Shown: positions 46,227-61,294 of the stretch, piece after piece
Numbering within the stretch: the stretch's first letter is position 1
Layout: each line of letters starts with the position of its first letter
Assembly: GCA_017432665.1 (NCBI GenBank)
Contig: JAFRIS010000015.1
Span: 2 to 64,001 of the forward strand
Source: Bacilli bacterium
GTDB taxonomy: Bacteria > Bacillota_I > Bacilli_A > RF39 > UBA660
Length of the DNA stretch: 64,000 bases
Direction: 5' to 3'
Notes under the pieces: model-generated
Told to the model about the DNA's origin: nothing
Seen by the model: the letters and a program-made list of their open reading frames with translations, nothing else
Database searches by the model: none
Position numbers and translations under genes: made by a program

Positions 46227-46574
46227 TTATTTACTATTTATACCTAACAAATTAGTTAATTTATCAGCAAAACTTTTTCCGAACATTTGTCTAATTGCTG
46301 CGACTAACTCAGTATAATTTTTTATAATGTTATTTTCTAATACATAAATCAAATTTTCAAAATTCTTATCCATAGTTGAAAAAGTATCGTCAAACGTATC
46401 AATAATTGTATTATAATCTAAGCCAGCAACTGAAAAGCATGAAGAACTAGAGTCTAATACTCTTCTAATATTATTATTATATTCATTACTGATAGCTTCT
46501 CTTTGATTCTTTAAAGATGTTAAAACTGTTTTTAATTCTGCAGTTGTAATTGCATTTCCACTATAACTAGCCAT
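46227..46574 (-). CDS. Small all-helical protein, paralogue of the 48937-49275 product
   Basis: 115 aa. Shares the N-terminal LK...L.K.....I...YN pattern and the C-terminal tail F-G-K-S-FADKLTNLLGINSK with the 112-aa protein (FNKTFASELGNLLDINK). RBS is GAGGTGA. Confidence 0.65.
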   Translation of the reverse strand: MASYSGNAITTAELKTVLTSLKNQREAISNEYNNNIRRVLDSSSSCFSVAGLDYNTIIDTFDDTFSTMDKNFENLIYVLENNIIKNYTELVAAIRQMFGKSFADKLTNLLGINSK

Positions 46575-46579
46575 TTAGA

Positions 46580-47254
46580 TCACCTCGAAATTGCACTTTC
46601 TATTGCAGAGATATTCTTAGCTTGATTTTCTTTAACCATATCTCTTGCTTGTTCATATGTACTGCATAATAATTCTAAAGCAGCAATTGTATTAGTGACT
46701 TTCTTATCCATACCAGTTAATTTAGATGTGTAACTAGCACAATCTTCACCCACCCAAGAATTATCAAGTTTAGCAACATTTCTCTTAGTTTCAACTTCCC
46801 AAGAATTTTTTAAAGAGGAAATTGATTTCTTTAAAGTAGCAATAATTTCTTCTAATTGATTATATGTAATATTTAAATCTTGTCCAGTTCCAGGAAGAAC
46901 AACTCCATATTTTGGTTGAATAACACCTGAAGGTGGATTAATCATTACACCATATTTTGGTTGAGGTGGCACATGACTAATTGCGACACCATATTTAGCT
47001 TGAATATAATTATTAAAGTTTCCACTACTTGTAGCAGTACCATAACCCATCTTTCCAGAAAATTGTTGTTTAGAATTCACAAGATTTTCTATATTTGGAG
47101 AACTTGCGGTAACTACCGATTCAGAAAAATCGCCATTTGTTTCAAGAAAAGCATCTGCAGTTGGAACAACTGCATTTGCACTATTTTCAACGATTCCAAA
47201 TACAGTTGAATCAGGATTTTTCCATGTAATTTTTGCTACTGATTTATAGGCCAT
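46580..47254 (-). CDS. PKYGV-repeat protein with C-terminal WXG100-like helical domain
   Basis: aa 68-122 read KMGYG...AKYGV...PQPKYGV...IQPKYGV. aa 130-224 are helical with LDNSWVGEDCASYTSKL (W-x-G turn). RBS is AGGAGG. Confidence 0.7.
   Translation of the reverse strand: MAYKSVAKITWKNPDSTVFGIVENSANAVVPTADAFLETNGDFSESVVTASSPNIENLVNSKQQFSGKMGYGTATSSGNFNNYIQAKYGVAISHVPPQPKYGVMINPPSGVIQPKYGVVLPGTGQDLNITYNQLEEIIATLKKSISSLKNSWEVETKRNVAKLDNSWVGEDCASYTSKLTGMDKKVTNTIAALELLCSTYEQARDMVKENQAKNISAIESAISR
46889..47053 (-). repeat. In-frame tandem repeats encoding (P/Q)-x-P-K-Y-G-V units
   Basis: CAACCAAAATATGG(T/A)GT occurs twice, plus GCTAAATATGGTGT. Three perfect KYGV units and one degenerate KMGYG unit. 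Confidence 0.8.
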
Positions 47255-47303: not shown

Positions 47304-48677
47304 TTATTCAACAAAATCTGTTCCCAATATTTCTTTCATACACATATTTGGCACTTTTTCTTTATAATTCCATGTATGAAACGAATCCCCTCTACAATAT
47401 TTAAAACTCTTACATTTTTTACATTTTGCATTAGTAGTTAAGCGTTTTTTTCTAAAGATTTCAAATTTGTTTTCCCAGACATCTACAAAATTGTCTGTTT
47501 TAATATTTCCTTGAACTAACGATTGATCTCTAACGTTTGGACAAACACAGATATCGCCATTAGCTAAAATACTTCCGATAAATAATCCAGCACCACAAAT
47601 GAAACTGTGATCACGTAAAATATTTTCATATTTAAGACCTAAATAATGACTACAGTCATAATCAACTATCATTTTACCTTCTAAACGCTTTTCGCGAATA
47701 AAATTAAACATATATATTAAACCATCTTTATCGAGCAAAATACCATCATTATCATAGGCTCTACCAATAGGATCCACTCCCATTACACGCCATTCTTCAA
47801 TACCTTTATCAAGTAACATTTGATATATGTCTTCTAATTCATTTAAATTCTTTTTGTTCGCAACAGTAGTGATCTGAAGTGATCTTAAAGTTTCTAAACC
47901 TTTTAATAGATCAATAGCTTTCATAATTTTATCGTATGAACCAGGTACTCTTCTAAAACTTTCATGTGTTTCTTTTAGACCATCTAAACTAATAGAAATA
48001 CTTTCCATATTTGTTCGACGGAAATTTTCAATTGTTTTTTCATTAATAAGCATTCCATTTGTAGTAATTCCCCATCTAAAACCTAATCCTACAGCATACT
48101 CCATGATATCAAATAAGTCTTTACGCATTAGAGGTTCTCCACCTGTCACAGTAAGAAAAACATTTTGAGCACCATATCTATTATGTATTTCTAAGAGAGT
48201 TCTTTTTAAATCCTCTGTACTTATTTCGTCTTTAGGTATTTTATAACCACAACTACTTCCACAATGTTCACACTTAGCATTACATCTAAGAGTTACTTCA
48301 AGAAATAAATTAGTTAGAACAGGATTTTCAACATAAAAATTTACTTCATCTGCGATTTGTTCTAAATCTTTCTTTTTTGCTTTTATAACTTTTTTAGTAG
48401 TTTTATTATTTAAATCATTAAAATCATGAGGAGTACGATAAAGTTTATCTCTTTCTAACTTTTCGAAGCACTCTGAAATACTATCTACAAACTTAGTCGC
48501 ATCTTCCAAGGCTCCAATAAATTCTTTTCTATTTTCTCCTTCTAATAATTTATCTGCACTATCTTCTTCACTTTTTATTTCTTTTTTCAACGACTTTAAT
48601 TGCTTCTTTAAATTTTTATACTCTTTAATATCATTGTCATTTTCATTTTCTTGTGCTTGTTTTTCTTTTAGTCTCAT
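47304..48677 (-). CDS. Radical SAM enzyme with C-terminal SPASM domain and ~115-aa coiled-coil N-terminal extension
   Basis: CNAKCEHC (CX3CX2C; DNA 48261-48284), GGEPL, and the C-terminal Cys cluster CSHY...FICGAGLFIGSILANGDICVCPN...CKKCKSFKYCRGDS...NMC. The start overlaps the upstream stop (ATGA). Confidence 0.85.
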   Translation of the reverse strand: MRLKEKQAQENENDNDIKEYKNLKKQLKSLKKEIKSEEDSADKLLEGENRKEFIGALEDATKFVDSISECFEKLERDKLYRTPHDFNDLNNKTTKKVIKAKKKDLEQIADEVNFYVENPVLTNLFLEVTLRCNAKCEHCGSSCGYKIPKDEISTEDLKRTLLEIHNRYGAQNVFLTVTGGEPLMRKDLFDIMEYAVGLGFRWGITTNGMLINEKTIENFRRTNMESISISLDGLKETHESFRRVPGSYDKIMKAIDLLKGLETLRSLQITTVANKKNLNELEDIYQMLLDKGIEEWRVMGVDPIGRAYDNDGILLDKDGLIYMFNFIREKRLEGKMIVDYDCSHYLGLKYENILRDHSFICGAGLFIGSILANGDICVCPNVRDQSLVQGNIKTDNFVDVWENKFEIFRKKRLTTNAKCKKCKSFKYCRGDSFHTWNYKEKVPNMCMKEILGTDFVE

Positions 48678-48928
48678 TCGGCTACCTCCTGGTTATCAAT
48701 TAAATCTTGTTTTAGTTGCCAACTCTCTTTTAATAAATCTAATTGTTCTAAAATAGCGACAATAGTTTTATCAGTGCTTTTAATCTTCTTTATAAACTCA
48801 TCACATAACTCATCTTTCCATGATTGTCGTAGATTTTCTAAATCATATATATTTAAATCATTCCAAATCTTATGGATTTTTTCAGTAGTTTTATCAATAT
48901 TTGCAATTATAATCTCTTTATTTTCCAT
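48674..48928 (-). CDS. Small helical protein, WXG100-like (W-x-D variant), paralogous to the C-terminal domain of the 46580-47254 product
   Basis: 84 aa. LRQSWKDELCDEF aligns with LDNSWVGEDCASY. RBS is AGGTGA. Confidence 0.6.
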   Translation of the reverse strand: MENKEIIIANIDKTTEKIHKIWNDLNIYDLENLRQSWKDELCDEFIKKIKSTDKTIVAILEQLDLLKESWQLKQDLIDNQEVAE

Positions 48929-48936
48929 AAATTCAC

Positions 48937-49275
48937 CTACTTATTAATATCTAATAAATTACCTAGTTCTGAAGCAAAGGTTTTATTAAATAATTCTTTT
49001 ATTTCAACAGAAAGATTTTCATATTCAGGAATAATTTTTGTGAGTAAAAGATTAGTCAATTCTGAAATATCACTATCAAATCTAGTGAATAGTTTTTTTA
49101 ATTCATCACTAATTCCAACAATATCTTCTTTTGATTTAATTAATTCTTTTTGGCTTGTAGTTAATATATCTTTTAATGATTCATTATACAAATCCATTAT
49201 TTCATTTTTTTCTTTAATTAAATTATTAGTTATTTTTCTTAAATCCCCAGTATTAACAATAACTTGATTATTCAT
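48937..49275 (-). CDS. Small all-helical protein, paralogue of the 46227-46574 product
   Basis: 112 aa with the shared C-terminal tail motif. RBS is AGAGG. Confidence 0.65.
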   Translation of the reverse strand: MNNQVIVNTGDLRKITNNLIKEKNEIMDLYNESLKDILTTSQKELIKSKEDIVGISDELKKLFTRFDSDISELTNLLLTKIIPEYENLSVEIKELFNKTFASELGNLLDINK

Positions 49276-50174: not shown

Positions 50175-53100
50175 TTATAACACAAATTTATCAGTACTAT
50201 CTAATACAGGTTCTTCTTCATTAATCATACTGGCAATTTCTTCATTAGATTTTACATTTCGTAAATAGTTAGTAATTACTTCTTTCATTTTTTCATAGCC
50301 ACTAGAATCCATTTTGTGAGAAACAAACTCATCATGATTTTTACCTATTTTTCCTTCGAAGTTTTCTCCAAAATCCCAGATTTGATAATTTTCTTTGAAT
50401 TCTTCAAAATCTTTTGATCTGTTTGCAGCTTCTAAGAATGATAAACAAGCATCATAGAATGAACCACCATTTTGTAATATCCAGTTTTCTACTCCTACTC
50501 CTCCTAGTCCACCTTCAGACGGATTGGAAAAATGTCCTTTATAACAGTGAGCTTCTTTTAAAACCTTTTTAGCTAAAATAATATTAGCTACTACTAGTTT
50601 ATACTTTTCTTCTCCATATTGGTCTCTAATACTCTCTAAACGGTCCTTTAAGCAAAGATCAGTAGTATATTCAATACCATCAGTCTTAGGTGTAAAAGAA
50701 ATATCAATATCAATTGTATCAGCTATTTCACCAGGATTAACGCCACTAAATCTAAAATCACCTTTATTAGTAATCTCAACAGTACCACCATTTTCAAGTA
50801 TTTTTTCTTTTATTGCGACTTTTAATTTTTCTATTAATACAGTATTTTTAAAAATATTAGTATCTAGACGCATCATATAATCAAAATCACTATCATTTGG
50901 TTTATTAGTACCTCTACCAGTAGAACCAGTATCAATTAATTCTGAGAAACCAAATGTAATATCTTTACTTAGATAAGGTCGTAATTCACGGATACCTTGT
51001 TCTTTACAAACTTCTTCTATTACAGCAAATATTATTTGTTGAATAGCAGCAACATTACTAGCATTGTCATCTAAAGATTTAGCAATTTCAACTATTTCAG
51101 GAGTTTCTAAATTATCAGATAATTTGTATTCAGGACATCCCAAATGGGATAATCCTTGCATTTTACTTCGTAATTCTAAATAATCATCATAAGTAAATAT
51201 CAAATTATTATCAGTATCTACTACTGGTATATATACTCCTTTACGAGCTAATTCATAACCAATTTGCTTATTAGGAATTTCTGTAACAATATGGTCAATA
51301 TAACCTATTGGGAATCCCGTACGGATACCAAAATGTTCTTCTGTACCAGTTCTAAACAATTCATAGTTTCGCATATTGTCTCTAATTCTCTTAGGTAATT
51401 CTTTATTCTTATTTTCCATATCACGTGATTCAAAAAATTTATCACTTTTTAAAACAAAGTATATTGGTCCATGTGTTGCGGCAGGAGTAGCTGAAACGCT
51501 CTCTACAAAAGACCCACCCTTAGCTATCTTTATACAGTCAGTATCTAAAGGGGTGTAATCAGTATTGGCATCACAACCCAAGAATTCTTGAGCTACACTA
51601 CCATTATCTAGAATACGTCCTAAGAATTTAATATCACCAATTCCTTTGATTAAATCACCAGCTTTAAGAGAAAAATCAGTTTTATCTTTATTTCTTTCTG
51701 TAATAGAATCTAATGCTGAATCAATAATTCTTCTAGCATCTTCAACGCTTTCAATACCTGCGAAGTAACAATACATCTTTACAATTCTATCTGCTATTGA
51801 ACTAGAATTATCAACTTTTAAGAACTTACTTAAATTCTTAATATTTTCAATAGGATCATCCACTTCTACAAATTCATCTTTATTAGGCATTCTACTGTAG
51901 TTATAGATGGCTTTTAAACACTCAGAAAATTGCTTTAGCAAATGAACTTGATCTAAAGATAATGGTCCATATAATTCACCAGTTATTATTTCTCGATAAA
52001 GTTTTTCTCCAGCTTCAATATTATCAAGATAATCAACAAAATCTGTATTAGCTGATTCTAAATTAATTCTAATTAAATCAGCAAATATAATAGCATCTTT
52101 TATTTCAGGATGATCTTCATACTTTTTTAATACTGGTGACATACGATCAAAAATTGGCATATCAGGATTAATAGTCTTATAGACTAAAAATCTTTTACCA
52201 AAACCAGGGATATGATTACTAGCAAATATTTTTTCAATAGTATCAAACTTTTCTAAAGGATCATCTACATATAATAATTGTCTTTCTAATTCAGTTCTAA
52301 TTCTAACTAATTCAGAAGAATTAGCATAAGAGATTCTATTAAACAATTCTCCTAAAATCGCAATTCTTTCTTCAGTTAATTCATGATAATTTTCTCTAAT
52401 AAAATCCCTAAATTCTTGTTGCGAATTTTCATCATCTTCACGGATTTTTTTATACTGTTCCATGATTAAATACTTTCTTCTATTATCTTCTTCTCTAGTT
52501 TTCCCTTCAAGTTGTAAATCAGCCATAAATAACATATCATGATTACCGAATGCTATATTTGTTTCACTAAAGTATTTAATATTCTCTTCAGTATATACAA
52601 TATATTTACCATAAAAAGCATCTTTTAGTTGAGGAGATACACTATCAGAACAAAACATTTCTGAATGACTTTTAAATACTTCTCTATAAGTTTCATCGTA
52701 TTCTTCTCCATTTAATACCATCTGATAGGCATTTTGTTCCATGGCTTCATAAGAATGATTATGAGCTCTTGAATCTAAAAATTTACCATAGATTGGAGCT
52801 AACTTATAAAATTCTTCTTCAGACAACGTACTATGAATTTTTCTGGTCATTGCTCTATAATCTTTTTGTCTTAGTATTTCAACTAATTCAGGATTTTCCT
52901 TTATGATTCTAGCACCCAATTTACCTTCCATTAAAATTCTTCTAATATAATTATCCGATATATCAGAAAAATCAAATTGTGGATAGCGTTTAATCATTTC
53001 CTCATTTAATACTATCCAATCTGCGTTTTTATAGTCATCATGTCCTATGTAATCATCATAAATTGCCTTATAAAACTGATTTTGTACTTCTTCTTCAGAT

Positions 53101-54842
53101 TTAGTAAAATCAAAATCATCTTCATAAAGAATAGTTTCAAAAAACAGCATGTTTTGATTTAAGAAATTTAAAAAGTTTTCATTTCCAAATCTCTCACAAT
53201 ATTCTCCAACAAACCAAATGTTTTTAGAAAACCTATATCTAATATCATGAGTACATAGATACTCTCTTTGTTCAGTAGTTAAATATTGTATTGTTGCACA
53301 ATTAGTTATATATTGAATTTTTGAAAATTCCTTAGGCACAATTAAATCTGGACTTATTTTTGAAAAATCTGGCACTTCAGACAAACGATTTGAGTCATTT
53401 AAATAAGTCTCTATCATCCATCGAACAAAATCTTCATATCTAGGTGGTTTATGAAATGGAATACGGTTATAATTATCAATTAGACGTTCAATAAAGCCAC
53501 TTTCATAAATTTCTTTATATAATTCATACATATTAGATTCTTGACTAAATCTATATAAGTTACCCGCTCCTACTCTATCAATTACATCTTGTGAATCAAA
53601 ATCTTTAATTATAATATGTTCATAATCTTCTAATTCGCTTGGATCAGGTATGTCAAAAACAATTTTAGTAAACATTTCAGAGAAACCTTCTGGTATTTTT
53701 GATCCAGCCATACCTTCTGTTAAATACTTACGAACTTCAGCACGAAGTGTATCTTCTATCCTATTAGGATTAAAATCAGTAGAATAATCTAATACTTTAG
53801 GAGCGTTTTCATTGCTAAATAACGCATGCATAAGTTGTGGATATTTATTATTTAATTCAATTACTTTTTGATATCCAATTTCTTCATACATCTTAGCAAA
53901 ATTATTTGGTATTTTGTAATCAACAGAAAAATCATATTCTAATACTGTAAATATTTCTTGATTATTAACTAAATCATCATAAGTTAATGTTCCTTTATAA
54001 TATCTATCTATTAAACCTTGATCGGTAGTATAATTTTCAATAAAAATTGTTTTAAAAGTACTTTTAGTCGCATCGGATTTACCTAAAAGTTCAAAAGCAA
54101 AAGATTCTCTTAATTCTTGATTTATATGATTCATTATTTCCTTAACATCAAATCTATCAATAAGTTCTTGATTAAGAAAACTGATATTATTAATAATTAC
54201 TAAGTAAAAATTTGGATCTTCTTTATAAGCTTTAATTGCGGGTTCTACACCGTATGAATTAATAAATCTATGTAATTCAAAATCTCTAACATATCGATGA
54301 TTTCTAGAAAATTTAGCTATTTGTTCAGGAGAAAATCCAATTAAATCTTCTATTACACATTGACCATTTAAGTATTTTTGTCTAAATTCAATATCAAAAC
54401 TATCATCTAAGAAAACATCCGGATGATTTCTAATGGTTTCTTCACCAAATACTTGACGAGATATTTCAAAAGTAACTCTTTCTCCTTCTAACGTATTTAA
54501 ATATTGATAATTAATAATATTACAATTTTCAAAATTAATATTTGCAATTTCTAAATAACAACCCAAATCTAATAAGTTTATTGTTGCATTAGTACCATTA
54601 AAAGAAATACTTTTATCTTTTGGAACAAAAATAACAAAATCATATTCTGTAGAAGGAATATCACTCAAGTCATAAGAAGTTAGTTCTTGCAATAAAGGAT
54701 ATATTGTATTTCCATATTCCTCAATTAATTTTAATGCTTGAGTATCGTCAACGTTATCAGAATCAGCAAATATTCTTTCATTTTCTGCATTAATTTTAGA
54801 AACTATTTCTCGAAAATGTTCTAGAGTTATCTTTTCCCTCAT
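50175..54842 (-). CDS. 1555-aa cytoplasmic protein with C-terminal Pol-beta-superfamily nucleotidyltransferase-like region; remainder unassigned
   Basis: No signal peptide or TM segment. ELIDTGSTGRGTNKPNDSDFDYMMRLD (DNA 50880-50927), then TIDIDISF, then ILAKKVLKEAHCYKG...GGLGGVGVENWILQNGG. RBS is AGGAGAG. Confidence 0.6.
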   Translation of the reverse strand: MREKITLEHFREIVSKINAENERIFADSDNVDDTQALKLIEEYGNTIYPLLQELTSYDLSDIPSTEYDFVIFVPKDKSISFNGTNATINLLDLGCYLEIANINFENCNIINYQYLNTLEGERVTFEISRQVFGEETIRNHPDVFLDDSFDIEFRQKYLNGQCVIEDLIGFSPEQIAKFSRNHRYVRDFELHRFINSYGVEPAIKAYKEDPNFYLVIINNISFLNQELIDRFDVKEIMNHINQELRESFAFELLGKSDATKSTFKTIFIENYTTDQGLIDRYYKGTLTYDDLVNNQEIFTVLEYDFSVDYKIPNNFAKMYEEIGYQKVIELNNKYPQLMHALFSNENAPKVLDYSTDFNPNRIEDTLRAEVRKYLTEGMAGSKIPEGFSEMFTKIVFDIPDPSELEDYEHIIIKDFDSQDVIDRVGAGNLYRFSQESNMYELYKEIYESGFIERLIDNYNRIPFHKPPRYEDFVRWMIETYLNDSNRLSEVPDFSKISPDLIVPKEFSKIQYITNCATIQYLTTEQREYLCTHDIRYRFSKNIWFVGEYCERFGNENFLNFLNQNMLFFETILYEDDFDFTKSEEEVQNQFYKAIYDDYIGHDDYKNADWIVLNEEMIKRYPQFDFSDISDNYIRRILMEGKLGARIIKENPELVEILRQKDYRAMTRKIHSTLSEEEFYKLAPIYGKFLDSRAHNHSYEAMEQNAYQMVLNGEEYDETYREVFKSHSEMFCSDSVSPQLKDAFYGKYIVYTEENIKYFSETNIAFGNHDMLFMADLQLEGKTREEDNRRKYLIMEQYKKIREDDENSQQEFRDFIRENYHELTEERIAILGELFNRISYANSSELVRIRTELERQLLYVDDPLEKFDTIEKIFASNHIPGFGKRFLVYKTINPDMPIFDRMSPVLKKYEDHPEIKDAIIFADLIRINLESANTDFVDYLDNIEAGEKLYREIITGELYGPLSLDQVHLLKQFSECLKAIYNYSRMPNKDEFVEVDDPIENIKNLSKFLKVDNSSSIADRIVKMYCYFAGIESVEDARRIIDSALDSITERNKDKTDFSLKAGDLIKGIGDIKFLGRILDNGSVAQEFLGCDANTDYTPLDTDCIKIAKGGSFVESVSATPAATHGPIYFVLKSDKFFESRDMENKNKELPKRIRDNMRNYELFRTGTEEHFGIRTGFPIGYIDHIVTEIPNKQIGYELARKGVYIPVVDTDNNLIFTYDDYLELRSKMQGLSHLGCPEYKLSDNLETPEIVEIAKSLDDNASNVAAIQQIIFAVIEEVCKEQGIRELRPYLSKDITFGFSELIDTGSTGRGTNKPNDSDFDYMMRLDTNIFKNTVLIEKLKVAIKEKILENGGTVEITNKGDFRFSGVNPGEIADTIDIDISFTPKTDGIEYTTDLCLKDRLESIRDQYGEEKYKLVVANIILAKKVLKEAHCYKGHFSNPSEGGLGGVGVENWILQNGGSFYDACLSFLEAANRSKDFEEFKENYQIWDFGENFEGKIGKNHDEFVSHKMDSSGYEKMKEVITNYLRNVKSNEEIASMINEEEPVLDSTDKFVL

Positions 54843-59885: not shown

Positions 59886-60317
59886 TTATTCAACAATACA
59901 AGAATTTTCATATTCAATTACATAATCTTTAATATTATATGAATGATCACTAAACCATTGTTCTGCTTTTTCCTTAGCTATTGCTGGATGTTCACAATTA
60001 GATATAGCAATTATTATAGCTAATTTTTTATCATCATTAATATATGGGTAAAACGAAAAATCAGAATCATCTACTTTTAGTAATTCATCATAAATTGTGT
60101 ATGATTCCATTATTTGATCATCATCATTACCATTCAATTTATCACATACTTGATGCATTTCTTCTTCTGTCTTAAATGTATAAGTCATATCTTTTTCATA
60201 ATCATAACACGAGTACTTATCTTTATTTACATTATTAATCAAAACAAAAACTATTATGAATACTATAAATGTCATCAAAAACACTACTATAGGAATTATT
60301 TTCTCTTTATTCTTCAT
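59886..60317 (-). CDS. Membrane-anchored hypothetical protein with four Cys
   Basis: RBS AAGGTGGG lies 7 nt before the ATG at 60317. The ATG overlaps the upstream TAA by 1 nt (TAATG). TM segment IIPIVVFLMTFIVFIIVFVLI. Confidence 0.5.
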   Translation of the reverse strand: MKNKEKIIPIVVFLMTFIVFIIVFVLINNVNKDKYSCYDYEKDMTYTFKTEEEMHQVCDKLNGNDDDQIMESYTIYDELLKVDDSDFSFYPYINDDKKLAIIIAISNCEHPAIAKEKAEQWFSDHSYNIKDYVIEYENSCIVE

Positions 60318-61294
60318 TATTTTACCCACCTTATAAGTTGATATAACCTCATACTTGCATTAGATTTAGCAGAATATGTCATCATAGTAGAACATTTATA
60401 ATCATTACAATTATTGGTAAATCTATGCCCACCATCAAAGACAACAGCACTACCAGTACTTTTATTAACACTGTAAATAGAGAAAGTATGTGCCTTAACA
60501 CCAATTATATCTCCTGGTTGTATTATTCCTTTTTGAATGGCAGTTTTAACATTCATAGAACCATCAAATTTATATTGCTTTGTATATTGGGTAATTTTTC
60601 CTTTATATCCTTGAAATCCTCCATAACCAACAGAGTTCACAACTGTACGTTTTCCTAATACATCGGTAAGTCCCCAATTTGTTGGAACTACACATGTAGT
60701 AGCAACTAATCTTCCACTTTCTGCTGCTTTAATAGCTTCAGCCCAAGTCCTTTTTGAATCACCATAATTATATTCTACTCTAGGATGATACTTAGCAATA
60801 GCGTCACTTAATCGTTTAGAATTATTATAATTACTAGTTAAAAATCTATTACAGTATTCCAAATTACCACATGAAGTAATAGGAGTATCTACACCACTAT
60901 AACTACTATCACCACCACTTACACTAGGATCATAACCATTAGGATCAGAAATAATAGATTGCCTATTTCCTGGATGTGGATCAATATAAGTTGGTTTTAA
61001 ATTAGGTTTAGTGGCACTTTTCCAGCAAGAACTAATTTCAAAATTATTACCTAGTAAAGCCATACTTACATTAACAATAGTTGGAATCATAAATAAAACT
61101 ATTAGAGCTATAATGCTATTCCTAATCTTACTAGGAACTTTTTTCTCTTCAGGATTTTTAACTAGCATTGTAAGATTAATAGTCAAACTAATAATAGCTA
61201 GCATCGGACCAACTATCCAAATAATATTTAATACATTTTTAACCATGTATAAAAAACTGGCTAAAACTGCATTATTACAATCAACTAAAATCAT
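60317..61294 (-). CDS. Two-TM membrane protein with extracytoplasmic Cys/His domain (possible papain-like NlpC/P60- or CHAP-like hydrolase)
   Basis: Two N-terminal TM helices. C-terminal ATTCVVPTNWG...GVKAHTFSIY...FDGGH. The family call is only an impression. Confidence 0.4.
   Translation of the reverse strand: MILVDCNNAVLASFLYMVKNVLNIIWIVGPMLAIISLTINLTMLVKNPEEKKVPSKIRNSIIALIVLFMIPTIVNVSMALLGNNFEISSCWKSATKPNLKPTYIDPHPGNRQSIISDPNGYDPSVSGGDSSYSGVDTPITSCGNLEYCNRFLTSNYNNSKRLSDAIAKYHPRVEYNYGDSKRTWAEAIKAAESGRLVATTCVVPTNWGLTDVLGKRTVVNSVGYGGFQGYKGKITQYTKQYKFDGSMNVKTAIQKGIIQPGDIIGVKAHTFSIYSVNKSTGSAVVFDGGHRFTNNCNDYKCSTMMTYSAKSNASMRLYQLIRWVK

What the first reader, a model, noticed from the sequence alone, without database searches (positions are those of the whole stretch)
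47304..48677. SPASM radical SAM enzyme carrying a charged coiled-coil N-extension instead of a recognisable RRE
Seen in sequence: the first ~115 aa (KEKQAQENENDNDIKEYKNLKKQLKSLKKEIKSEEDSADKLLEGENRKEF...) are strongly charged and heptad-like. The radical SAM core starts only at about aa 120 (FLEVTLRCNAKCEHC). The C-terminus holds at least 7 Cys in the SPASM arrangement (CGAG...NGD.CVCPN...CKKCKSFKYCRG). The start codon overlaps the stop of the 84-aa WXG-like gene (ATGA). Established knowledge: many RiPP maturases use an N-terminal PqqD-like RRE to bind their substrates. Inference: here a coiled coil may dock onto the helical bundle proteins encoded on both sides, which would be an unusual substrate-recruitment mode.
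Basis: partly seen in the sequence, partly recalled or inferred. Interest (0 to 1): 0.65.

Follow-up and report, generated by a model that had tools for sequence, protein, structure and literature searches.

The report
Radical SAM enzyme with helical extension
A real iron-sulfur "radical SAM" enzyme carries an unusual all-helical front end and sits in a conserved five-gene cassette, next to a secretion-type (WXG100-like) protein with repeated Lys-Tyr-Gly motifs, the signature of enzymes that cut tyrosine out of protein backbones; that chemistry is inferred here, not shown.

Summary
Window 47304-48677 (minus strand) encodes a 457-aa radical SAM/SPASM enzyme. Its first ~118 residues are 46% charged, all-helical, and conserved in about 38 relatives.

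- **Start codon:** it has a strong ribosome-binding site and overlaps the stop of the 84-aa gene (ATGA).
- **Not an RRE:** the extension has three helices and no strands, and no detectable relative outside this enzyme clade.
- **Likely origin:** its first two helices resemble the small WXG-like hairpin protein encoded just upstream. The profile comparison gives P=5.6e-4, above all 300 shuffles.
- **Likely substrate:** across this unnamed sister group of TIGR04133, the neighbouring protein carries tandem X-Tyr-Gly motifs. Here it is the 224-aa downstream protein, with KYG three times in a disordered stretch followed by a WXG100-like hairpin. XYG repeats are the hallmark of tyramine-excising "spliceases".
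- **Limits:** the docking idea is plausible but unproven. The extension arose once, and sister enzymes without it keep the same cassette.

I file it as a new variant of a known kind, with interest about 0.6.

The parts
48937..49275 (-). 112-aa helical 'partner-type' protein, first gene of the cassette and a paralogue of the 115-aa protein
   Evidence: Scores 136 bits against the partner-family HMM. No Pfam family matches. A gene of this type lies upstream of the enzyme in most long-form loci.
48674..48928 (-). 84-aa small WXG-like helical hairpin protein without Tyr-Gly repeats; its stop overlaps the enzyme's start (ATGA)
   Evidence: Aligns with the C-terminal domain of the 224-aa protein and scores 103 bits against the WXG-like HMM. 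The overlap is read directly from the sequence. Its family is the best match of the enzyme's N-extension.
48324..48677 (-). N-terminal extension of the enzyme (aa 1-118): three helices, 46% charged. Helices 1-2 are probably a degenerate WXG-type hairpin. Helix 3 has a counterpart in the short-form relatives.
   Evidence: AF2 helices at 2-37, 47-80 and 92-117, no strands. Composition. Conserved in 32 aligned relatives. Found only in this clade among 1.84 billion representatives. hhalign against the small WXG-like family gives P=5.6e-4, and 0 of 300 shuffles reach that score.
47658..48323 (-). Radical SAM core (aa 119-340) with CX3CX2C at C132/C136/C139
   Evidence: Pfam Radical_SAM, E=3.7e-23. 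Invariant motif residues are listed. Foldseek neighbours are SkfB, SuiB, anSME and PqqE.
47304..47657 (-). SPASM domain (aa 341-457) plus the stop codon. Seven invariant Cys (342, 361, 379, 419, 422, 428, 446). The fourth Cys of CX2CX5CX3C is replaced by Ser432.
   Evidence: Pfam SPASM, E=2.8e-7. Invariant columns. Cys positions.
46895..47005 (-). Tyr-Gly repeat region of the 224-aa protein (aa 84-120), the predicted modification sites: AKYGV (Y88), PKYGV (Y101), PKYGV (Y116). A further GYG lies at Y71.
   Evidence: Positions. The region is disordered in the AF2 model, pLDDT below 50. In the 29 homologues whose sequences were read, 28 carry tandem Q[PA][KA]YG[VT] (or YA) motifs, up to 7 copies; P0153 has none. 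Y101/G102 and Y116/G117 are nearly invariant columns.
46580..46882 (-). WXG100-like helix-turn-helix domain of the 224-aa protein (aa 125-224), with NSWVG in the turn
   Evidence: AF2 helices at 131-164 and 170-223. Pfam WXG100 E=1.3e-4, below the cutoff. TIGR03930 E=2.4e-4. The domain profile hits ESAT-6 and EsxA in the PDB at E of about 4e-3.
46227..46574 (-). 115-aa helical partner-type protein, last gene of the cassette
   Evidence: Scores 155 bits against the partner-family HMM. It follows the Tyr-Gly protein in every long-form locus read that has DNA held.

Best explanation
**The cassette.** The gene is the enzyme of a conserved five-gene cassette: partner, small WXG-like, radical SAM/SPASM, Tyr-Gly-repeat WXG-like, partner.

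**The enzyme and its substrate (inferred from gene neighbourhood).** The enzyme belongs to a large, unnamed sister group of TIGR04133. In that group the neighbouring protein almost always carries tandem X-Tyr-Gly motifs. I therefore infer that the enzyme modifies the K-Y-G sites (Y88, Y101, Y116) in the disordered N-terminal half of the 224-aa protein encoded 50 nt downstream.

**The chemistry (inferred by analogy).** The most likely reaction is the one known for XYG motifs. [quoted passage not shown]

**What is shown about the extension.** It is a lineage-specific, all-helical module and not an RRE.

**What is inferred about the extension.** Its first two helices are probably a diverged copy of the WXG-type hairpin encoded just upstream, fused to the enzyme. 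I propose that this built-in hairpin pairs with the hairpin domain of the substrate or with the small partner proteins, much as WXG100 proteins pair with each other. It would then hold the substrate, or activate the enzyme, while the flexible Tyr-Gly stretch is threaded into the active site. That is the job done elsewhere by an RRE, by the PlpY protein or by a leader helix.

**My confidence in each step**
- The extension is real and not an RRE: 0.95.
- The enzyme acts on the Tyr-Gly sites of its neighbour: 0.8.
- The reaction is tyramine excision: 0.5.
- The extension derives from a WXG-like hairpin: 0.5.
- The extension has a docking or activating role: 0.4.
For: **1. The enzyme is real, and its structural neighbours are peptide-modifying enzymes.** Foldseek finds SkfB, SuiB, anSME, PqqE, ChlB and EpeE.

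**2. The Tyr-Gly association is family-wide.**
- 40 of 68 family loci have an ORF with at least 2 copies of [PQ]x(1-3)YG[VIALTP] within 700 nt of the enzyme gene.
- Only 7 of 374 control ORFs have two or more copies.
- The association holds in short-form Bacilli loci, where the repeat unit is KxKYD[IV]xPEDNVPQxVYG[IV]P.
- It holds in Lachnospiraceae at 40-46% identity, with NxxPxxVYGPPEWF repeats or a 62-aa lipoprotein carrying YYGCPNS.
- It also holds at about 30% identity in L070 and L071.

**3. The window's substrate family fits.** Of the 29 homologues read, 28 carry tandem Q[PA][KA]YG[VT] or YA motifs, up to 7 copies, followed by a conserved WXG-like domain; P0153 has none. The repeat region is disordered.

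**4. XYG is the known splicease target.** XYG is the target of rSAM/SPASM spliceases, and YG-rich neighbours were the published mining criterion for them (PMC11414181, PMC10533398, PMC10849128, PMC11626197). Known splice tags such as PIRPLYGLPI and AVAAGYGVVFP (PMC10533398) look like QPKYGVVLP here.

**5. The conservation pattern fits.** Y and G (or A) are fixed, while the residues on either side vary. That matches XYG and not a three-residue cross-link motif.

**6. The extension.**
- It is strictly tied to the WXG-like cassette in about 10 different genomic backgrounds.
- Its gene is translationally coupled to the 84-aa gene.
- hhalign against the small WXG-like family gives probability 30% and P=5.6e-4, colinear over helix-turn-helix, with 'LLxG' aligned on the W-x-G turn.
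- Reversed and shuffled controls never reach that score (0 of 300).

**7. Precedents.**
- In spliceases a helix from PlpY or from the substrate leader binds and activates the enzyme, and it still works when fused to the enzyme (PMC11414181).
- In this same family the 515-aa forms carry a different N-terminal domain. That domain is homologous to a domain of their own Tyr-Gly substrates (phmmer E from 2.5e-9 to 6e-5). Accessory domains therefore move between enzyme and substrate.
Against: - No biochemical data exist, and no splicease structure or sequence was available for comparison.
- The PlpX family model TIGR04103 matches at only 117.6 bits against a cutoff of 725. That is no better than AhbD (144.7 bits) or MftC (138.9 bits).
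- Several lineages have Tyr-Ala instead of Tyr-Gly: L006, L095, P0144 and P0151. One homologue, P0153, has no Tyr-Gly motif at all.
- The extension arose once, so the co-occurrence is not independent evidence.
- Sister enzymes without helices 1-2 (P0041, P0044) have the same cassette.
- The upstream 84/112-type gene pair is absent from some long-form loci, L006 and L016.
- The high pTM of 0.88 suggests the extension packs in a fixed position on the enzyme itself. That would fit an intramolecular role.
- The homology to WXG-like hairpins has only 30% hhalign probability.
- No type VII secretion genes lie in the 64-kb window.
Confidence: 0.45

Rival explanations
1. The extension is an intramolecular element. 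It could be a built-in activating or capping helix bundle that packs on the enzyme's own barrel, in the way the PlpY helix or a leader helix does in spliceases, or it could be a stabilising or oligomerising domain. In this reading it does not dock onto the neighbouring proteins, and substrate recognition rests on the Tyr-Gly core sequence alone.
For: - The whole-protein pTM of 0.88, with pLDDT 78-95 over aa 1-120, points to a fixed position relative to the core.
- Sister enzymes without helices 1-2 serve the same type of cassette.
- Spliceases can act without a leader once an activating helix is supplied in cis (PMC11414181).
- A helix 3 equivalent is present in the short-form relatives.
Against: - The first two helices resemble a WXG-type hairpin, a fold that normally pairs with another hairpin.
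- The enzyme gene is tightly translationally coupled to the 84-aa hairpin gene.
- Model coordinates could not be inspected, so packing on the core is an inference from pTM only.
Confidence: 0.3
2. The enzyme does act on the Tyr-Gly repeats, but with a different radical chemistry. Candidates are a Tyr-centred cross-link or cyclophane, epimerisation, or some other backbone or side-chain change.
For: - The closest family model is the uncharacterised TIGR04133, not the PlpX model.
- Structural neighbours include cross-linking and epimerising enzymes: SuiB, SkfB, PqqE, EpeE.
- Natural Tyr-Ala variants exist.
- The fourth Cys of the SPASM motif is Ser in at least 90% of the aligned family. This is an unusual cluster environment of unknown meaning.
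Against: - Only Y and G/A are fixed in the repeats, and the neighbouring residues vary. Three-residue cyclophane motifs conserve the third residue, as far as I know.
- PqqE-type and MftC-type reactions need a fixed Glu or a C-terminal Tyr (my own knowledge), and neither is present here.
- Tandem XYG next to an rSAM/SPASM gene was the criterion that yielded 27 experimentally confirmed splicease pairs (PMC10849128).
Confidence: 0.3
3. The enzyme has nothing to do with its neighbours. It would be a cofactor or other small-molecule radical SAM enzyme (AhbD/NirJ-like), and the extension would be an unrelated appendage.
For: The second-best family models are AhbD, MftC and NirJ at 120-145 bits.
Against: - All those scores are far below the family cutoffs.
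- Adjacency to Tyr-Gly-repeat proteins is conserved from 100% down to about 30% identity, in unrelated genomic backgrounds.
- No cofactor-pathway genes accompany the enzyme.
Confidence: 0.05

Closest known systems
Tyramine spliceases of spliceotide pathways (PlpX/PcpX with PlpY; RhaX, RcsX, RasX)
   Same: - Both are radical SAM enzymes with a SPASM domain.
- The substrate is encoded next door and carries one or several X-Tyr-Gly sites with Pro/Val/Leu flanks.
- Protein-sized substrates are known in both.
- Both rely on an accessory helix rather than a canonical RRE, and that helix can sit on a separate protein, on the substrate or on the enzyme (PMC11414181, PMC10533398, PMC11626197).
   Different: - This enzyme is not a member of the PlpX family model (117.6 bits against a cutoff of 725).
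- The substrate is a WXG100-like protein whose folded domain lies C-terminal to the sites.
- The accessory module is a natural N-terminal three-helix fusion, whereas the published fusions were engineered at the C-terminus.
- Some lineages use Tyr-Ala.
- No activity has been shown.
- I could not read Scott et al. 2022 (Chem 8:2659), which lists 939 predicted systems. The short-form relatives may already be catalogued there.
TIGR04133 'rSAM/lipoprotein system' radical SAM/SPASM family (uncharacterised)
   Same: It is the best-scoring family model for every branch examined, at 240-311 bits over nearly the full core. One Lachnospiraceae branch also pairs with a small lipoprotein.
   Different: All scores are below the curated cutoff of 425, so these proteins form a sister group and are not members. 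TIGR04133 has no N-terminal extension and no assigned function.
RRE-bearing rSAM/SPASM peptide maturases (SuiB, CteB, PqqE with PqqD)
   Same: They share the core fold and auxiliary-cluster domain. They also share an N-terminal add-on of about 100 residues placed before the barrel.
   Different: The add-on here is all-alpha with no beta sheet, and it matches no RRE or PqqD profile. It fails the strict beta3-alpha3 definition of an RRE (PMC12710340).
WXG100 / ESAT-6 family (EsxA, EsxB)
   Same: The 224-aa C-terminal domain and the 84-aa protein are helix-turn-helix hairpins of about 90-100 residues, with W-x-G or a W-x-D variant in the turn. They are encoded in pairs with a second small helical protein. 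The top PDB sequence hits are ESAT-6 and EsxA.
   Different: - Scores are below the family cutoffs.
- No type VII secretion genes lie in the window.
- One member carries a long disordered Tyr-Gly repeat region, and the pairs flank a radical SAM gene. The two-term literature search (radical SAM + WXG100) returned only three papers, none with either term in title or abstract.

Membership tests
RiPP recognition element (RRE, PqqD-like) | [quoted passage not shown] | tested here: not met
   The AF2 model of aa 1-120 has three helices and no strand, with block pLDDT 78-95.
RiPP recognition element (RRE, PqqD-like) | Detectable similarity to PqqD or RRE profiles or to solved RRE structures | tested here: not met
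   No Pfam hit falls in aa 1-120 at E<0.1. A profile of 32 extensions searched against PDB sequences gives only weak matches, all E>=0.077, mostly keratin and other coiled-coil proteins. No dedicated RRE-Finder or HHpred run was possible.
Tyramine splicease (spliceotide X protein) | Radical SAM CX3CX2C motif plus a SPASM auxiliary-cluster domain | tested here: met
   One deviation: the fourth Cys of CX2CX5CX3C is Ser.
Tyramine splicease (spliceotide X protein) | An adjacent substrate gene with conserved X-Tyr-Gly site(s) | tested here: met
   The next gene has KYG three times plus one GYG. The motif is conserved in 28 of the 29 homologues read and is family-wide. Some lineages have Tyr-Ala instead.
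Tyramine splicease (spliceotide X protein) | Membership of the PlpX sequence family (IPR026482, which I take from memory to correspond to TIGR04103), or of a published splicease type | tested here: not met
   TIGR04103 scores 117.6 bits against a cutoff of 725. Placement among the published types (Scott 2022) could not be tested because that paper and the sequences are not held.
Tyramine splicease (spliceotide X protein) | Loss of C8H9NO (135.06 Da) at the site, with alpha-ketoamide formation | not testable with these tools
   This needs co-expression and mass spectrometry.
TIGR04133 radical SAM/SPASM (rSAM/lipoprotein system) | Score at or above the curated cutoff of 425 bits | tested here: not met
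   The window protein scores 303.8 bits. Relatives score 240-311 bits.
WXG100 (for the 224-aa and 84-aa neighbours) | A helix-turn-helix hairpin of about 100 residues with W-x-G in the turn | tested here: met
   AF2 helices at 131-164 and 170-223, with NSWVG at 165-169. The 84-aa protein aligns to this domain, with W-K-D here and W-x-G in its relatives.
WXG100 (for the 224-aa and 84-aa neighbours) | Score above the Pfam PF06013 or TIGR03930 cutoff | tested here: inconclusive
   PF06013 scores 22.6 bits against 27.3, and TIGR03930 scores 21.3 against 44.85. Three homologues carry a precomputed PF06013 hit. The PDB profile search puts ESAT-6 and EsxA on top at E of about 4e-3. Foldseek's top hit is EsxEF but it is not significant.
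WXG100 (for the 224-aa and 84-aa neighbours) | Association with a type VII secretion apparatus (EssC/FtsK-type ATPase) | tested here: not met
   None was found among the ORFs I scanned in the 64-kb window (most of those of about 300 aa or more). The rest of the genome could not be examined.

The most novel reading that the evidence does not exclude
The enzyme recruits its substrate by mimicry of an Esx-type dimer. Its N-terminal extension would be a captured, degenerate WXG100 hairpin that forms a four-helix bundle with the substrate's own WXG100-like domain or with its partner. The product would be a WXG100-scaffold protein, possibly exported, that displays several alpha-ketoamide (beta-amino acid) warheads made by tyramine excision. 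That would be a ribosomal, protein-sized protease-inhibitor or reactive effector in gut and rumen Bacilli. It would link radical SAM backbone splicing with the WXG100/type VII world for the first time.
Probability: 0.15. Interest if true: 0.85.

Novelty: new variant of a known kind. Interest (0 to 1): 0.6.

Why it matters
- **A third way to recruit or activate.** If the reading is right, this is a natural example of a splicease-type enzyme that has fused a helical recognition or activation module to itself. It would parallel fusions that were only recently engineered for protein labelling. It would also be a route distinct from RREs and leader helices.
- **A new class of target.** It would extend backbone splicing from small peptides to WXG100-type proteins.
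- **A testable function for many unannotated genes.** Hundreds of protein clusters in uncultured rumen and gut Bacilli and Lachnospiraceae would gain a testable function.
- **Practical use.** The short QPKYGV-type repeats and their compact enzymes could serve as new splice tags for installing ketoamide handles in proteins.

Tried and rejected
- **Complex model.** No model of the complex exists.
- **Extension against solved structures.** The extension profile searched against PDB sequences gives only weak matches (all E>=0.077), mostly coiled-coil proteins.
- **Extension against the 112/115-aa partner family.** There is no similarity (P=0.19).
- **Exhaustive search with the extension.** phmmer against 1.84 billion representatives finds only long-form enzymes and their fragments.
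- **Search with the 84-aa protein.** It found only two relatives. I gathered more from neighbouring loci instead.
- **Substrate fold search.** Foldseek on the substrate model puts Esx proteins on top, but not significantly.
- **Defence systems.** PADLOC gives only generic viperin-like radical SAM similarity.
- **Literature.** Nothing is held on TIGR04133 and nothing relevant links radical SAM with WXG100. Scott et al. 2022 is not held, and splicease sequences are not in the held supplements. No direct sequence comparison with PlpX or RhaX was therefore possible.
- **Cyclophane (triceptide) chemistry.** I consider it unlikely, because the invariant positions are Y and G, not the third residue.
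- **PqqE-like Glu-Tyr or MftC-like C-terminal Val-Tyr chemistry.** I consider both unlikely, because there is no fixed Glu and no C-terminal Tyr.
- **Reductase partner.** The DUF362 gene next to the cassette is not a conserved partner. It is adjacent only in close relatives.
Full report
**The observation**

The ORF lies at 47304-48677 on the minus strand and encodes 457 aa. Its ATG follows an AGGAGG box by 7 nt and overlaps the TGA of the upstream 84-aa gene (ATGA). There is no other in-frame ATG in the first 130 codons. Residues 1-118 are 46% charged, against 28% for the rest of the protein.

Pfam places Radical_SAM at aa 127-288 and SPASM at aa 369-423, and nothing in aa 1-120. The CX3CX2C motif is C132/C136/C139. 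The C-terminal part has eight Cys, and seven are invariant in 58 relatives. The fourth Cys of the usual CX2CX5CX3C is Ser432 in at least 90% of the aligned family.

The extension is translated and under selection. About 38 distinct proteins of 443-457 aa (55-82% identical overall) align across it without frame breaks, and their hydrophobic positions are conserved.

**What the extension is**

An AlphaFold2 model built on 58 sequences is confident (pLDDT 91.8, pTM 0.88). It shows three helices at 2-37, 47-80 and 92-117, with no strand before residue 123. An RRE is strictly a beta3-alpha3 winged helix (PMC12710340), so this is not one.

- A profile of the extension finds nothing but coiled-coil noise among PDB sequences.
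- An exhaustive phmmer search of 1.84 billion representatives finds only long-form enzymes and assembly fragments of them. The extension is confined to this clade.
- Helix 3 has a counterpart in the ~364-aa relatives. Helices 1-2 are the true addition.
- Helices 1-2 match the family of the small WXG-like protein encoded directly upstream. hhalign gives probability 30% and P=5.6e-4 over 59 colinear columns spanning helix-turn-helix, with the conserved 'LLxG' of the extension aligned on the W-x-G turn.
- Reversed alignments score 10-11 against the real 25.1, and none of 150 column shuffles or 150 heptad-block shuffles reaches the real score.
- The larger WXG-like set gives a weaker match (P=0.004), and the 112/115-aa partner family gives none.

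I read this as suggestive evidence, not proof, that the extension began as a fused copy of the neighbouring hairpin gene.

**The surroundings**

The 84-aa protein is a paralogue of the C-terminal domain of the 224-aa protein. The 112-aa protein is a paralogue of the 115-aa protein. The locus is therefore partner, small hairpin, enzyme, Tyr-Gly hairpin protein, partner.

The 224-aa protein models as a disordered stretch (aa 1-130), followed by a helix (131-164), a turn (NSWVG, 165-169) and a second helix (170-223). Its domain profile hits ESAT-6 and S. aureus EsxA first among PDB sequences, at E of about 4e-3. Pfam WXG100 and TIGR03930 match below their cutoffs. 'WXG100-like' is a fair description.

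The five-gene cassette recurs with every long-form enzyme examined, in about ten unrelated chromosomal backgrounds. Sometimes the enzyme is duplicated in tandem (L004, L097). The window itself is ordinary chromosome, with MutS, AlaRS, ExoVII, a Mur ligase and LytR-CpsA-Psr. It has no type VII secretion gene.

**The likely substrate**

The disordered half of the 224-aa protein carries AKYGV, PKYGV and PKYGV (Y88, Y101, Y116), plus a GYG at Y71. Of the 29 homologues whose sequences were read, 28 have tandem copies of [VI]Q[PA][KA]YG[VT], up to seven, in front of the conserved hairpin domain. A few lineages use Tyr-Ala instead, and one homologue has no motif.

The same theme runs through the whole enzyme family.

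- The ~364-aa 'short' enzymes of other Bacilli MAGs are followed by proteins of 170-1230 aa. These carry one to five copies of KxKYD[IV]xPEDNVPQxVYG[IV]P.
- Lachnospiraceae relatives at 40-46% identity sit beside DUF805 membrane proteins with NxxPxxVYGPPEWF repeats, or beside a 62-aa lipoprotein ending in YYGCPNS.
- Relatives at about 30% identity are followed by YG-rich proteins.
- Overall, 40 of 68 family loci have an ORF with two or more such motifs within 700 nt of the enzyme gene. Only 7 of 374 control ORFs do.

The enzyme family is thus tied to Tyr-Gly motifs, not to any one substrate scaffold.

**The likely chemistry**

Tandem X-Tyr-Gly next to a radical SAM/SPASM gene is the signature of spliceases. 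[quoted passage not shown] YG-rich neighbours were the criterion by which 27 enzyme-substrate pairs were found and confirmed (PMC10849128). Known splice tags such as PIRPLYGLPI and AVAAGYGVVFP (PMC10533398) resemble QPKYGVVLP.

In the repeats here only Y and G/A are fixed. That fits XYG. It does not fit a three-residue cyclophane motif, nor PqqE-type or MftC-type reactions.

Sequence alone does not settle the matter.

- The best family model is the uncharacterised TIGR04133, at 304 bits against a cutoff of 425.
- The PlpX model TIGR04103 scores 118 bits against a cutoff of 725, no better than AhbD or MftC.
- Structural neighbours are generic peptide-modifying SPASM or twitch enzymes, and no splicease structure exists.

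I put tyramine excision at about 0.5. I put 'acts on the Tyr-Gly sites of the neighbour' at about 0.8.

**What the extension does**

In spliceases, recognition does not use a true RRE. An alpha-helix from the small Y protein, or from the substrate's leader, binds one site on the enzyme and activates it. That helix still works when fused to the substrate or to the enzyme (PMC11414181).

In the present family, accessory domains also move between partners. The 515-aa enzyme forms carry a ~150-aa N-terminal domain that is homologous to a domain found in their own Tyr-Gly substrates or as a separate ORF. A fused helical module with a recognition or activation role is therefore in character.

A WXG-type hairpin is a fold that pairs with another hairpin.

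The evidence is circumstantial, however.

- A neighbour-joining tree of the core shows that the long forms are a single clade. Its sister group is P0041/P0044.
- Those sister enzymes have the WXG-like cassette but lack helices 1-2. The extension was therefore gained once and is not needed for this substrate type.
- The upstream hairpin/partner gene pair is not always present.
- The high pTM fits an extension packed on the enzyme itself equally well.
- I could not model a complex.

**Comparison and novelty**

The system works most like a spliceotide pathway. It is not a member of the PlpX family model, of TIGR04133, or of the RRE class. The neighbours are distant WXG100-like proteins without a visible secretion apparatus.

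I found no relevant paper linking radical SAM enzymes with WXG100 proteins and none on TIGR04133. I could not read Scott et al. 2022, which catalogues 939 predicted spliceases. The short-form relatives, for example in Acholeplasma sp. CAG:878, may already be listed there. The long form, with its fused helical module and WXG100-like substrates, is known only from metagenome assemblies. I therefore call it a new variant of a known kind.

**Verdict**

- The feature is real and is not an RRE.
- The more important finding is that this is a predicted Tyr-Gly-modifying system, probably a splicing one, acting on a WXG100-like protein.
- Interest is 0.6.

Noticed in passing
window 50175-54842 (-): A 1555-aa ORF has no Pfam family. 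Its only hit is a weak PADLOC match to an oligonucleotide cyclase / nucleotidyltransferase motif at aa 1296-1350 (E about 1e-4). The gene is absent from the otherwise syntenic locus L001, where DUF362 directly follows the alpha-amylase gene. It looks like an insertion.
   Followed up: partly
L008 3687-4988, L018 3580-4959, and by eye L025, L027, L028 (upstream of short-form enzymes): In L008 and L018 a VirD4/TraG-type coupling-protein ATPase of 433-459 aa (Pfam T4SS-DNA_transf, TrwB_AAD_bind) lies immediately upstream of the short-form enzyme; L025, L027 and L028 (430-455 aa) have similar N-termini with a GKTT motif by eye only and were not scanned. In L006 a HerA-like ATPase lies about 1.5 kb upstream of a long-form enzyme. 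This hints at a link between Tyr-Gly-repeat proteins and a translocation motor.
   Followed up: partly
P0051, P0060, P0071, P0082, P0085, P0086 (514-520 aa); L025 5642-6271; L026 6081-7982: A second kind of N-terminal extension (~150 aa) on some enzymes is homologous to a domain at the front of their own Tyr-Gly-repeat substrates, or to a stand-alone ORF (phmmer E from 2.5e-9 to 6e-5). The accessory domain shuffles between enzyme and substrate.
   Followed up: partly
L063 4983-6572, L065 and L067 4986-6560, with 61-62-aa ORFs beside them: Lachnospiraceae enzymes of 524-529 aa carry a ~190-aa C-terminal extension with an HSHP...S..D motif reminiscent of a JAMM metalloprotease. Pfam does not confirm it. 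They are flanked by small lipoproteins ending in YYGCPNS(K/R)KVKKLNL.
   Followed up: partly
window 47382-47384 (codon of Ser432) and the whole family: The fourth cysteine of the SPASM CX2CX5CX3C motif is Ser in at least 90% of the 58 aligned relatives. Gly430 and His434 beside it are invariant, and Asp431 is conserved in all but the most distant sequences. One auxiliary cluster may have an open or non-Cys ligand site.
   Followed up: no
L004 6001-7356 and 7599-8963; L097 1-417 and 434-1780: Tandem duplicated long-form enzyme genes sit within one cassette. In L004 there are also two Tyr-Gly substrates with different N-terminal regions but near-identical hairpin domains.
   Followed up: no
L006 7399-8070, L095 4902-5507, P0144, P0151: Several lineages have Tyr-Ala repeats (for example QPLYAVKDP or YPAYATRP, up to five copies) in place of Tyr-Gly. 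This is either a relaxed specificity or a different reaction.
   Followed up: no
window 60317-61294 (-): A 325-aa ORF matches Pfam T4SS_pilin at aa 20-76 (26.8 bits, just above the 26.6 cutoff), in an otherwise housekeeping chromosomal stretch.
   Followed up: no
L042 3222-4469 (-), L044 to 783 (-), L054 2746-3846 (-): In some short-form loci the Tyr-Gly protein is divergently transcribed and carries 9-10 repeats (QVLYG, or VQPKYGVE/VCPP), behind an N-terminal helical domain. The VQPKYGV unit there is the same as in the long-form substrates.
   Followed up: no
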